This document shows positions 15,702 through 18,525 of a stretch of DNA of 64,000 nt, one piece after another. The DNA is taken from NCBI GenBank assembly GCA_951406725.2, contig OX597815.1, positions 31,806,001-31,870,000 on the forward strand, given 5' to 3'. A program made the position numbers. Positions within the stretch are counted from its first letter, which is position 1, and every line of letters begins with the position of its first letter. Origin of the DNA: Octopus vulgaris (Eukaryota).

Positions 15702-18525
15702 AAACACTTTTATACACACACATACAAACATAACATATACATGTACTTACATATATTAAAATAAAATATTAAAAGATAACTATTCAATCATGTGTGTGTG
15801 TGTTTCGTGTGTCGTGTGTGTGTATGTCATGTGAGTACATGTCTGTATGCATGTATGTGATAAACACATACAAACATATATCTAAACCCTTAGCATTTAA
15901 TCTGGCTATATTCAACCCAAATATTAATCTCACACCTACCCCTACAATGTCATTATAAAAATACACAAAATCACCATAGAAATATTGAAGCTAGAAGATA
16001 ATGTGTGATTAATTGAAAACAATATGAATAAATAAGCAATGGCTCAGTGGTTAGAGTGTCAGGCTCACAATCATGAGGTAGTGAGTTCGATTCCCAGACC
16101 AGGCTGTGTGCTGTGTTCTTGAGCAAGACACTTTGTTTCATGTTGCTCCAGTCCACTCATTTGTAGAAATGGATTGCGATGTCACTGGTGTTAAGCTGTA
16201 TCAGCCTTTGCCTTTCCCTTAGATAAAATCGGTGGCATGGAGACGAGAGACTGGTATGCATGGGCAACTGCTGGTCTTCCATAAACAACAATGCCTGGAC
16301 TTGTGCCTTGGAGAAGAACTAAGTGTAATCCTTTGGTCATGAATGACCAAAGGGGGTCTTTTCTTTACATTTGACAAAGTAATTTGAATGCTAAAGGGTT
16401 AAACTTGTCCAATTATATATTCATATCCACACGTTGAAGACTAGAAACTGTAGTCCACTTCTTTTAATTTTATGTGACAAAGTAAAAGACCTCACCCCCA
16501 CCCCCTTCATACCACCACCACAGCCATTTCCAAAATACAGGGCAAACACACTGAATTGTTCCCAGCCTTCCACCTTCACAACTTCAAAATCTGCAGCTGG
16601 CACTGGACACAGTGAAGTGAGGTGTAATGGAATGGAGGAATCAAAGAATTCAACACATTCAAACAATGAAAGTTAGAGAGGATACCAATTCCGAGTTCTG
16701 AGAAAGCTAGAATGCTTTTAAAGCAAACCTGATACGGTATTTGTACAATTGTCGTAATAGTTCTAATAGCATTGGATGACGACTTCTAACAGGTTACATG
16801 AAATCTTGGTAAAGTCTGAAGTCTAGGAATGTACGTCAAATAGCTGTGAGGATGGAATCTTGTCATAATTACTGTTCTGTTACCCACATACACCTCCCTT
16901 CAACCACACACACACACACACACACATACATACATATACAAACACATGCTCATACACATAAATACAGTCAAATGCGTTTTTTTCCTTCTTCTCGTACCAT
17001 GCCAGTTTTACAGGCATTGGCAATCATGAACATTCATGTCAAAGTCTGAAGAATCAAGAATTTTCTTGAGAACAATACGGTAATGAATTACCATTACCTT
17101 TTGCTGATTTATTTACAGTTTATTCTGCTTGTCTTCTGCTTTTCTGAGCTTACCATTGAGGTACAGAGCTTATTTAAAACCCTTGGGCAAGGTTCAAATG
17201 ACATCAAGGCATTTTCATACACTGGTAAGTTAGTGTGACACATGTCTAGGGTCCAGCTATCCTCAAAGTCATGTATGATTTATACACATGACCATCATCT
17301 GCTATGTGACACAAGGGTCCTTAATAGGTACTACCACCCCAAGCTAGGGAGGAGTGGTGGCTAAAGAGTAAATTCATGGCTCCAAAACTCTTGAATTCCT
17401 AAGTTGAAACCTCACTACTGGATGTAGCAAGCTGACAGAATCATTACTGTGCTGGAAGAAATACTGCCGAGCATTTCTTCCAGCCTTACATTCTGAGTTC
17501 AACTGCTGCCGGGGTCAACTTTGCCTTTCATCCTCTTGGGACTGACAAAATAAGTACCAGTTAAACACTGGGCTCAATGTAATTGATTTACCCCACCCCC
17601 TCCGAATCCCTGGCCTTGTTCCAAAATTTGAAACCAATATCTTGCCCAGAACAGATATGTTTTTTCCAGGCTTTAATACTCAGTCTAAACTCAACTTTAG
17701 AAAATTATTGATACACCATAACTTAGAAAGAAATTCTATGCCTTTTTGCATGATCTGTTGTTAGGAATAGCAATCAAATCACCCTCAAATCACAAAATAT
17801 TGGTCTTTACAAAAATTGAAGGACACAGTAGAAAATGTACTTCTAGTAGCAAAAAGACAGGATGTTGGTGGCATTGGTAATGATGGTAACGGTGGTGGTG
17901 GTCATGATGACAATAATAATGATGATGATGATGATGGTGATGACAACAACGAAGGTGATGATGATATGATGACGATAATGATTAATGATGATGATAAATG
18001 ATGATGATGATGATAATGATGATGATATCACTAAACATTTTTCTTTTCTTTCTCTATTTCAGATGGTAATGTCTTAAGCAACCAACCATTCCACCTCAAT
18101 TGGGCCATCATTTCAATGGAGAAAAATCTGTTCAAAGTAAACGAAGTTGAAAAATTATTAAATATCACACTTTGGAGGCGAGGTTATGTTGGTACAACAT
18201 GTTATATAAGTGAGTAGAAATGTATATTTTATCTAATGGAATTATTTACATGTTATTAATCAGCATTACACATACTTTCAAAACAACCTCTCTACCTTTC
18301 TACCTCTTATATTTGTTACCCCACACCGTCTTATCTCCTCTGTCTGTTTCCCTCACTGTCTCTCTTTATAGGTATACGCTTTGTTATTCACTATGTACCT
18401 GTGTGTATATGTACTACTTTCATTTCCAACAGGTCGTATATCTGTGAGAGTTTTACATATATAGATATGCATATATACACTCACACATATACACATATAT
18501 ATGTATATATGCATACTTATATATG

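What the first reader, a model, noticed from the sequence alone, without database searches (positions are those of the whole stretch)
17083..18209. Hidden signal-peptide exon predicts a secreted, CSPG-less, Calx-beta-first FREM2-type protein
Seen: a 47-codon ATG-initiated ORF, too short for the ORF track, with an in-frame upstream stop, a long hydrophobic core, a plausible V-Q-S cleavage site and a consensus donor in exactly the phase needed to join exon 18063 across an 838-nt intron. I found no CSPG-coding exon in the 17 kb upstream. Known: FREM2/FREM3/ECM3 proteins carry a signal peptide and about 12 CSPG repeats before the Calx-beta array, and mammalian FREM1 has an internally initiated short form (TILRR). 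Inference: this is either an internal-promoter isoform or a truncated paralogue that recruited a new leader exon.
Basis: partly seen in the sequence, partly recalled or inferred. Interest (0 to 1): 0.75.

Follow-up and report, generated by a model that had tools for sequence, protein, structure and literature searches.

The report
Possible leader exon, FREM2-like gene
A short reading frame that looks like a secretion signal sits just upstream of the first Calx-beta exon of a mollusc-type FREM2/ECM3 matrix-protein gene. Nothing available here shows that it is used, and the gene's usual long front half may simply lie beyond the window's edge.

Summary
The sequence features are real. There is an ATG at 17083 followed by 47 codons with a hydrophobic core, an in-frame TGA at 17047, and a G|GTAAGT donor in phase 1. 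An 838-nt gap leads to the acceptor of exon 18063-18209. No CSPG-coding sequence exists anywhere in the window.

A look-alike ORF is uncommon by chance: about 0.006-0.09 expected per 17 kb. It is the only hydrophobic one of 5 possible phase-1 start ORFs upstream.

The inference of a CSPG-less protein is not established:
- Exon 18063 is the conserved exon that follows the CSPG block in every relative seen. It matches residues about 1558-1750 of roughly 3000-aa proteins.
- It starts at a phase-1 intron whose position is conserved in the relatives read.
- The gene already contains a 19.3-kb intron, longer than the 18 kb available upstream.
- No database protein carries the leader, and there is no promoter-like CpG signal.
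- No cephalopod relative, transcript or flanking sequence could be reached.

Best reading (about 0.5): an ordinary FREM2/ECM3 orthologue whose 5' half lies left of the window. A real alternative or replacement leader exon remains a live possibility (about 0.35).

The parts
16972..17049 (+). Upstream ATGs at 16972, 16999 and 17026, all in frame with the leader ORF and closed by the in-frame TGA at 17047-17049. A further ATG at 17036 in another frame ends at TAA 17081-17083, overlapping the leader ATG.
   Evidence: Read.
17083..17224 (+). Candidate leader exon, coding part: ATG, 47 codons and 1 base, with a hydrophobic core at residues 6-20 and a G|GTAAGT donor in phase 1. Unverified.
   Evidence: No Pfam family, no homologue, unique within the window.
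17225..18062 (+). Putative 838-nt intron if the leader is used; otherwise the 3' end of a longer intron. It holds one copy of an interspersed SINE-like repeat (17424-17641) and a (GAT)n-type microsatellite (about 17879-18030).
18063..18209 (+). Exon encoding the tail of the last CSPG repeat plus the first part of Calx-beta 1. Phase 1 in, phase 1 out. Matches residues 1652-1700 of P0074.
24868..24948 (+). Exon, middle of Calx-beta 1, phase 1-1.
27826..27975 (+). Exon, end of Calx-beta 1, phase 1-1.
   Evidence: Pfam Calx-beta E 5.7e-07.
29129..29254 (+). Exon, start of Calx-beta 2, phase 1-1.
34449..34697 (+). Exon, rest of Calx-beta 2, phase 1-1. A second in-frame AG lies 9 nt downstream, at 34457.
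   Evidence: Pfam Calx-beta E 3.7e-06.
34698..53951 (+). Intron of 19,254 nt inside the same gene. No exon is missing, because the P0074 match runs on from residue 1901 to 1902 across it.
53952..54101 (+). Exon, start of Calx-beta 3, phase 1-1.
59981..60190 (+). Exon, rest of Calx-beta 3, phase 1-1.
   Evidence: Pfam Calx-beta E 6.7e-09.
61439..61636 (+). Exon, start of Calx-beta 4, phase 1-1. The gene runs off the right end of the window.
   Evidence: Pfam Calx-beta E 1.2e-04, below the gathering score.

Best explanation
It comprises eight phase 1-1 exons for Calx-beta domains 1 to 4. Exon 18063-18209 is the conserved exon that follows the signal peptide, Frem_N and 12-CSPG block in all relatives seen. 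Here it is most likely spliced from a CSPG-coding exon lying more than 18 kb upstream, left of the window. On this reading the 47-codon ORF at 17083 is a fortuitous, T-rich intronic ORF that happens to end at a strong donor in the phase shared by every exon of this gene.

Shown: the exon map, the homology, the conserved intron position, and the absence of CSPG sequence in the window. Inferred: that the CSPG exons exist outside the window and that the ORF is not used.
For: 1. The window's exons match residues 1652-2089 of the 3035-aa P0074 colinearly and without a gap. P0074's CSPG part, residues 1-1651, has no hit in the window at E<=1.
2. The exon-18063 peptide matches long proteins far from their N-termini: 1753-1800 of a 3168-aa representative and 1652-1699 of P0074. 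The same junction motif lies at residues 1558-1750 in 13 of 14 invertebrate orthologues tested; my pattern missed Sinanodonta.
3. All 13 named mollusc and brachiopod orthologues listed are 2929-3154 aa and carry Frem_N, Cadherin_3 (the CSPG repeat) and Calx-beta.
4. Of the 14 representatives read, 8 are single-exon genomic ORFs with unrelated sequence up to the same residue, then the motif, then S-E or S-K read-through. Both exon borders are therefore old. Three others (P0064, P0071, P0076) and P0074 have CSPG-type sequence directly upstream. None of the 14 has a leader directly before this exon.
5. In P0074, Pfam Cadherin_3 stops at profile position 94 of 106 exactly at the intron site. The exon therefore begins about 12 profile positions before the end of CSPG repeat 12 (inference). 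Those first 13 residues are 82.8% identical on average to 13 relatives, against 38.7% for the other 35.
6. One of the 7 introns inside the window is 19.3 kb, longer than the 18 kb available upstream.
7. No protein carrying the leader was found (25-83 aa). No protein of 85-2000 aa carrying exon 18063 was found.
8. CpG o/e is 0.10-0.36 around 16.5-17.5 kb, 0.36 upstream and 0.32 in the gene body, so there is no promoter-like rise.
9. Four ATGs lie within 111 nt upstream of the leader ATG.
10. The leader exon has T 0.39, against 0.21-0.30 in the eight confirmed exons.
Against: The ORF is a good candidate and is not expected by chance. About 0.006-0.09 equally good ones are expected per 17 kb. There is no other non-microsatellite example on either strand of the window. 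It is the only hydrophobic one of 5 possible phase-1 start ORFs upstream and the one nearest the exon.

Its hydrophobic core (2.83) sits in the upper half of the real leaders of 12 orthologues. Its donor, G|GTAAGT, is as good as the gene's own donors. It is unique sequence, not a repeat copy.

This reading needs an intron of more than 18 kb, which only 1 of the 7 introns seen reaches. No CSPG exon was actually seen, and no cephalopod full-length protein was found. The one search that could have found such a protein listed only the best 120 of 553 hits.
Confidence: 0.5

Rival explanations
1. Alternative first exon, the TILRR-like case. The locus makes the canonical long protein from a distal promoter. 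In addition, a promoter inside the long intron, near 17.0 kb, gives a transcript whose first coding exon (17083-17224) supplies a cleavable signal peptide spliced in phase 1 to exon 18063. The product would be a short form that starts with a stub of CSPG repeat 12 and goes straight into the Calx-beta array, secreted or type I membrane-bound.
For: The ORF, hydrophobic core, donor strength, phase and proximity are as described and rare by chance. All exons are phase 1-1, so the join is in frame. There is a precedent in the family: TILRR starts in an intron of FREM1 and has its own 5' coding sequence (PMC8346017, passages). The strong conservation of the CSPG-tail residues at the start of exon 18063 fits a locus that still makes the long form.
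Against: There is no transcript evidence. No protein with this leader was found, and no protein of 85-2000 aa with exon 18063. There is no CpG or strand-skew change at the putative promoter. Four upstream ATGs lie within 111 nt. The n-region has no positive charge. TILRR keeps three CSPG repeats, so it is not a precedent for a CSPG-less form. I know of no short FREM2 form; one literature search on this surfaced no FREM2 paper among the 8 listed.
Confidence: 0.22
2. Truncated gene or paralogue. This copy has lost the Frem_N and CSPG part, for example through a partial duplication, and recruited 17083-17224 as its only leader exon. The locus would then encode only a signal peptide plus the Calx-beta array and the C-terminal part.
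For: No CSPG sequence lies anywhere in the 18 kb upstream on either strand. The leader ORF is the only plausible start. The eight exons are intact with good splice sites, so the copy is not a dead fragment. Exon 18063 departs from relatives at positions invariant in 13 of 13 of them: the second W of the W-x-W-I/V/L-S motif is I, and N-E-T is N-E-V. That could mark a diverged paralogue. This reading needs no long intron.
Against: All 13 named lophotrochozoan orthologues keep the full architecture. The first 13 residues of the exon, which belong to the end of CSPG repeat 12 by profile position, are the best-conserved part (82.8%). That is unexpected if the repeat was lost long ago. The upstream region matches the gene body in CpG depletion and strand skews, and no neighbouring gene marks an intergenic region. 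Overall divergence of 43-55% from all relatives is what a distinct molluscan class would show anyway.
Confidence: 0.15
3. The ORF region is a real but non-productive exon: a cryptic or poison exon, or the 5' exon of an unrelated non-coding transcript. Alternatively, the lack of CSPG exons reflects an assembly break or rearrangement left of 18063.
For: AG acceptors preceded by T-rich tracts lie inside the ORF, at 17118 and 17148, upstream of the strong donor. Used as an internal exon after a phase-1 exon, the 106-nt or 76-nt piece would break the frame (my reading). The window is dense in microsatellites and repeats, which are hard to assemble.
Against: No evidence of use. There are no N runs in the window and no sign of a join.
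Confidence: 0.06

Closest known systems
FREM2 / ECM3-like proteins of molluscs and brachiopods, for example Patella caerulea P0087, Haliotis cracherodii P0090, Babylonia areolata P0092 and P0131, Lingula anatina P0096 (names as given by the sources)
   Same: The match to the Calx-beta 1-4 region is colinear, at 43-55% identity over about 350-430 aligned residues. The junction motif is the same at the start of exon 18063.
   Different: Those proteins have about 1550-1750 residues (leader, Frem_N, 12 CSPG) before this point. Nothing of that part is in the window. The window's exon has I for an invariant W and has lost an invariant N-E-T sequon.
TILRR, the short form of mammalian FREM1 (PMC8346017, passages read)
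   Same: A family member with a transcription start inside an intron and its own 5' coding sequence spliced onto downstream exons. This is the mechanism proposed for the leader exon.
   Different: TILRR (715 aa) keeps three CSPG repeats, one Calx-beta and the lectin domain. The form proposed here would keep no whole CSPG repeat. TILRR is supported by cDNA and protein data; this form has none.
Vertebrate FREM2 and FREM3 (named entries; family described as 12 CSPG repeats plus Calx-beta motifs in the abstract of PMC7004800)
   Same: The same order of domains. The region homologous to exon 18063 lies at about residues 1753-1800 of a 3168-aa representative. Vertebrate entries show 49-52% identity to the bivalve-like P0074 in the Calx-beta region.
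   Different: A more distant lineage. My recollection that vertebrate FREM2 has one giant first exon ending at this point comes from no call and was not confirmed.

Membership tests
FRAS1/FREM 12-CSPG family, FREM2/ECM3 branch | Tandem Calx-beta domains homologous and colinear to those of FREM2/ECM3 | tested here: met
   Pfam Calx-beta on 4 of 46 ORFs, 3 above the gathering score. tblastn is colinear to P0074 residues 1652-2089. Identity to 16 relatives is 43-55%.
FRAS1/FREM 12-CSPG family, FREM2/ECM3 branch | Twelve CSPG (Cadherin_3) repeats N-terminal to the Calx-beta array | tested here: not met
   None in the window on either strand. Whether they lie left of the window is not testable here, so this does not exclude membership. 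The exon's first 13 residues correspond to the end of repeat 12.
FRAS1/FREM 12-CSPG family, FREM2/ECM3 branch | N-terminal signal peptide followed by the Frem_N domain | tested here: not met
   No Frem_N match in the window. The candidate leader at 17083 is followed by the Calx-beta exon, not by Frem_N.
FRAS1/FREM 12-CSPG family, FREM2/ECM3 branch | C-terminal transmembrane segment and short cytoplasmic tail | not testable with these tools
   The gene runs off the right end of the window at about residue 2089 of about 3035.
FRAS1/FREM 12-CSPG family, FREM2/ECM3 branch | Conserved phase-1 intron at the border of CSPG repeat 12 and Calx-beta 1 | tested here: met
   Acceptor at 18062/18063 in phase 1. 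The same border appears in 8 single-exon ORFs of other animals among the 13 representatives fetched.
Cleavable eukaryotic signal peptide | Hydrophobic h-region of about 7-15 residues near the N-terminus | tested here: met
   Residues 6-20. The 12-residue Kyte-Doolittle mean is 2.83, against 1.70-3.02 in 12 orthologue leaders.
Cleavable eukaryotic signal peptide | Positively charged n-region | tested here: not met
   M-N-Y-H-Y has no K or R. At least two of the orthologue leaders also lack one, so this is a weak criterion.
Cleavable eukaryotic signal peptide | Small uncharged residues at -3 and -1 after the h-region; positive call by a trained predictor | tested here: inconclusive
   C-F-S (19-21) and V-Q-S (27-29) fit the rule by eye. 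No SignalP-type tool was available.
Intron-initiated short isoform (TILRR type) | Transcription start inside an intron, and transcripts joining the private 5' exon to downstream exons | not testable with these tools
   No transcript data. CpG o/e shows no promoter-like rise.
Intron-initiated short isoform (TILRR type) | Private 5' coding sequence conserved in related species | tested here: inconclusive
   No match of 25-83 aa in 5.8 billion clusters. No control shows that cephalopod sequence of this kind is in that collection.

The most novel reading that the evidence does not exclude
The 17083 ORF is a genuine first coding exon. A cephalopod FREM2/ECM3 locus would then produce a protein in which a private signal peptide is joined directly to the Calx-beta array with no whole CSPG repeat. 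This could be an intron-promoter isoform or the sole product of a truncated copy. Such an architecture has not been described for the Fraser-complex family, whose hallmark is the 12 CSPG repeats.
Probability: 0.35. Interest if true: 0.55.

Novelty: new member of a known kind. Interest (0 to 1): 0.3.

Why it matters
If the leader is used, the Calx-beta and C-terminal half of a Fraser-complex protein can act on its own. That would separate the function of that half from the matrix-binding CSPG half. It would also add a second intron-initiated short form to a family where TILRR is the only described one.

If it is not used, the case is a useful caution. In a T-rich, long-intron genome where every exon is phase 1-1, a signal-peptide-like ORF with a perfect donor can sit next to a real exon. 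Absence of upstream exons within 18 kb says little when the same gene has a 19-kb intron.

Tried and rejected
1. Leader tail as a remnant of CSPG repeat 12. By eye there is a D-x3-F-x3-D resemblance. An HMM of the last repeat from 13 orthologues does not place the leader ORF among its 20 best of 2707 ORFs (best E 4.8). The resemblance also needs a 2-residue shift at the conserved intron. Rejected.
2. A ferlin gene upstream. The Ferlin_C hit at 14116-14511 (-) has E 0.0086 and 16.4 bits against a cut-off of 29.4. Its translation is low-complexity Q/H/L-rich sequence. Rejected.
3. Leader ORF as part of a repeat. blastn of 16600-18070 against the window finds repeats only at 17424-17641 and 17759-17827, not over the ORF.
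4. Strand-skew change as a mark of a transcription start. The masked GC and TA skews upstream and in the gene body do not differ: the 95% intervals are -0.047..0.119 and -0.064..0.014. Uninformative.
5. CpG o/e as a promoter mark. No rise. Weak, because the whole window is depleted (0.33).
6. Homologue searches. Exon 18063 against proteins of 85-2000 aa found none. The leader against 25-83 aa found none. A bivalve-like full-length protein (P0074, residues 1640-2100) against 1669-5312 aa gave 553 hits. The best 120 are listed and none is named as a cephalopod, so cephalopod entries may sit below the listing.
8. The protein atlas on the leader gave a best score of 0.78 and recognition 1425, below the level that means anything.
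9. Rfam on the whole window gave no match.
10. Pfam on 128 - strand ORFs from 18300 onward found no family.
11. Literature. FREM2 with octopus gave 1 irrelevant paper. FREM2 with '24 exons' gave none. The passages read in PMC7004800 and PMC2855323 say nothing on FREM2 exon sizes. A search for FREM2 short or alternative-promoter forms surfaced no FREM2 paper among the 8 listed of 1037.
12. The spliced (joined) model was not translated, searched or folded. Every search was exon by exon.
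Full report
**What is there.**
- An ATG at 17083 opens 47 codons (MNYHYLLLIYLQFILLVFCFSELTIEVQSLFKTLGQGSNDIKAFSYT).
- One more base (G, 17224) precedes GTAAGT, so the donor is in phase 1.
- An in-frame TGA lies 11 codons upstream, at 17047-17049.
- After 838 nt, a pyrimidine-rich tract and cag bring in exon 18063-18209. That exon needs exactly one base from upstream, and the junction codon would read Asp.
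- The window has no N runs.

I did not translate, search or fold the joined model. Everything below was done exon by exon.

**The gene.** Pfam finds Calx-beta pieces on the + strand at 27786-27998, 34415-34732, 59809-60195 and, below the gathering score, 61417-61647. That is 4 of the 46 ORFs scanned.

A HMMER search of the 48-residue exon peptide against 1.84 billion cluster representatives gave 78 hits at E<=0.001, the best only 60% identical. Local tblastn with the hits I read (P0074, P0001, P0069, P0071, P0076, P0064) and a reading of the splice sites give eight exons, all phase 1 in and phase 1 out:
- 18063-18209
- 24868-24948
- 27826-27975
- 29129-29254
- 34449-34697
- 53952-54101
- 59981-60190
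- 61439-61636

They match residues 1652-2089 of the 3035-residue P0074 colinearly, and the gene runs off the right end. The introns are 6.7, 2.9, 1.2, 5.2, 19.3, 5.9 and 1.2 kb.

Against 16 lophotrochozoan relatives the exons are 43-55% identical (Patella 54.8%, Babylonia 54.6% and 52.7%, Haliotis 53.9%, Lingula 49.9%). The window therefore comes from a lineage not represented among them.

**Where exon 18063 sits in the family.** It matches long proteins far from their N-termini: 1753-1800 of a 3168-residue representative and 1652-1699 of P0074. I did not fetch or use the 3168-residue representative, P0061. It is unnamed and of mammalian FREM2 length, so it might be human; only the coordinates in the table are quoted.

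A search with P0074 residues 1640-2100 gave 553 proteins at E<=1e-10, of which the best 120 are listed. The 13 named mollusc and brachiopod entries are Mercenaria, Ruditapes, Mya, Sinanodonta, Patella, Ylistrum, Haliotis, Pecten, two Babylonia, Lingula, Dreissena and Pinctada. They are 2929-3154 residues long and all carry Frem_N, Cadherin_3 (the CSPG repeat) and Calx-beta.

In 13 of the 14 invertebrate sequences tested, the junction motif lies at residues 1558-1750, directly after the D-x-F-x-F-x-V-x-D end of the last CSPG repeat. My pattern missed Sinanodonta.

Of the 13 representatives fetched, eight are single-exon genomic ORFs (P0002, P0005, P0007, P0018, P0022, P0024, P0036, P0040). Unrelated F/S/L-rich sequence runs up to the same residue, and S-E or S-K read-through follows the last residue. 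Both borders of this exon are therefore shared with other animals. These representatives are unnamed. Three of them match the gastropod motif; the origin of the other five is unknown. Three further ones (P0064, P0071, P0076) and P0074 have CSPG-type sequence directly upstream. None of the 14 proteins read has a leader directly before this exon.

In a 229-residue piece of P0074, Pfam Cadherin_3 ends at profile position 94 of 106 exactly at the intron site, and Calx-beta begins 15 residues later at profile position 7. I infer that exon 18063 starts about 12 profile positions before the end of CSPG repeat 12. Those first 13 residues are 82.8% identical on average to 13 relatives, against 38.7% for the other 35.

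**No CSPG sequence in the window.**
- All 89 filtered + strand ORFs starting before 18000 gave no Pfam family.
- The 93 filtered - strand ORFs of 385-18183 gave one sub-threshold Ferlin_C match. Its translation is low-complexity sequence.
- tblastn of P0074 residues 1-1651 found nothing at E<=1.
- The N-terminal parts of 13 orthologues gave 26 incoherent HSPs at E<=10, best 0.69.
- An HMM of the last CSPG repeat had a best E of 4.8 among 2707 ORFs of 15 aa or more.

It is also weak evidence, because the 18 kb available is shorter than the 19.3-kb intron inside the same gene.

**Is the leader ORF more than chance?**
- On the + strand of 1-18062 there are 27 GTRAG sites. Five have an ATG ORF open to them in phase 1. 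Only the 17083 ORF has a hydrophobic core, and it is the nearest to the exon.
- Over both strands and all three phases of the window, every other ATG ORF with a 12-residue hydrophobicity of 2.5 or more ending at GTRAG lies in a microsatellite, such as CVCV or MMVM runs.
- In 6 Mb from a third-order Markov model of the masked window, the expected number per 17 kb in phase 1 is 0.006 (GTRAGT, h>=2.8), 0.02 (GTRAG, h>=2.8), 0.09 (GTRAG, h>=2.5) and 0.23 (GTRAG, h>=2.0).
- The core value of 2.83 lies within the 1.70-3.02 of the leaders of 12 named orthologues.
- The ORF is unique sequence. A SINE-like repeat copy lies at 17424-17641 in the putative intron.

A fair chance probability is therefore about 0.01-0.1, allowing for the post hoc choice of criteria.

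**Against use of the ORF.**
- No protein of 25-83 residues resembles it. I have no control showing that such cephalopod ORFs are in that collection.
- No protein of 85-2000 residues contains exon 18063, so no annotated short form is in that collection.
- CpG o/e is 0.10-0.36 at 16.5-17.5 kb, 0.36 for 1-17082 and 0.32 for the gene body.
- Masked strand skews do not differ between upstream and gene body.
- Four ATGs lie within 111 nt upstream. Three are in frame and closed by the TGA; one is in another frame and ends at a TAA overlapping the leader ATG.
- The n-region has no K or R.
- The exon is more T-rich (0.39) than the eight confirmed exons (0.21-0.30). A hydrophobic leader would be too.

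**Weighing.** Under the ordinary reading, two moderately unlikely things must hold: an upstream intron over 18 kb (1 of 7 seen is that long) and a chance ORF of this quality. Under the leader readings, a rare kind of event must have happened, one for which the family offers a single partial precedent. TILRR starts in the intron between FREM1 exons 24 and 25 and has its own 5' coding sequence, but it keeps three CSPG repeats (PMC8346017, passages).

With rough priors I arrive at:
- about 0.5 for the ordinary reading;
- about 0.22 for an added isoform;
- about 0.15 for a truncated copy;
- the rest for a non-productive exon or an assembly problem.

The conservation of the CSPG-tail residues favours a locus that still makes the long protein over an old truncation. 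That argument is weakened if those residues also serve Calx-beta 1.

**Comparison and novelty.** The gene is a new member of the FREM2/ECM3 branch of the Fraser-complex family. The abstract of PMC7004800 describes that family as twelve CSPG repeats plus Calx-beta motifs. PMC2855323 (passages) speaks of a predicted transmembrane domain with furin-dependent shedding in Fras1 and Frem2. Membership rests on the Calx-beta array and the conserved intron. The CSPG, Frem_N and transmembrane features lie outside the window.

My recollection that vertebrate FREM2 has one giant first exon ending at this junction, and that human FREM2 has 3169 residues, comes from no call; searches did not confirm it.

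The leader-exon hypothesis would be a new variant if true, and it is cheaply testable.

**What stayed unchecked.**
- The sequence left of the window.
- Any transcript.
- Any cephalopod orthologue.
- The 433 unlisted hits.
- A trained signal-peptide prediction.

No supplementary files were consulted.

Noticed in passing
window 18063-61636 (+): All eight exons of the gene are symmetric phase 1-1 and each Calx-beta domain is split over two or three exons. Any exon skip would stay in frame, and any phase-1 donor upstream is formally compatible with any of them.
   Followed up: partly
window 18104-18145 (+), inside exon 18063-18209: The exon departs from 13 of 13 relatives at otherwise invariant positions. 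The second W of the W-x-W-I/V/L-S motif is I, and the N-E-T sequon is N-E-V. R-R-G-Y-L-G-E-T-S-F, its commonest form among the relatives, reads R-R-G-Y-V-G-T-T-C-Y. This could be a long lineage branch or a diverged paralogue.
   Followed up: partly
window 1024-1501, 9699-10417, 17424-17641, 19542-19685 (-), 53429-53533 (-), 55802-55905: An interspersed SINE-like repeat family has at least 10 further partial copies matching the 17424-17641 copy, at 72-84% identity. Rfam finds no family in the window.
   Followed up: partly
window 19251-20000: This is the only CpG-rich patch seen near the exon (o/e 0.82-1.33 against a window mean of 0.33). It overlaps a repeat copy that recurs near 53400-53606, judged from similar ORF translations.
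   Followed up: no
window 34449 and 34458 (+): There are two in-frame acceptor AGs 9 nt apart at the start of exon 34449-34697. The upstream one gives the same residue spacing as P0001. The downstream one would remove three residues.
   Followed up: no
window 2397-3557; 15148-15750; 16883-16976; 44684-45428: There are very long microsatellites: a (TA)n run of about 1.1 kb, (CA)n-rich blocks just upstream of the leader ORF, and a long run that reads as D/N-rich or M/V/T-rich peptides depending on frame. These create long spurious ORFs.
   Followed up: no
window 17116-17118 and 17146-17148 (+): AG dinucleotides preceded by T-rich tracts lie inside the leader ORF. Together with the strong donor at 17225 they could define a 106-nt or 76-nt internal exon that would break the frame of a canonical transcript (my reading).
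   Followed up: no
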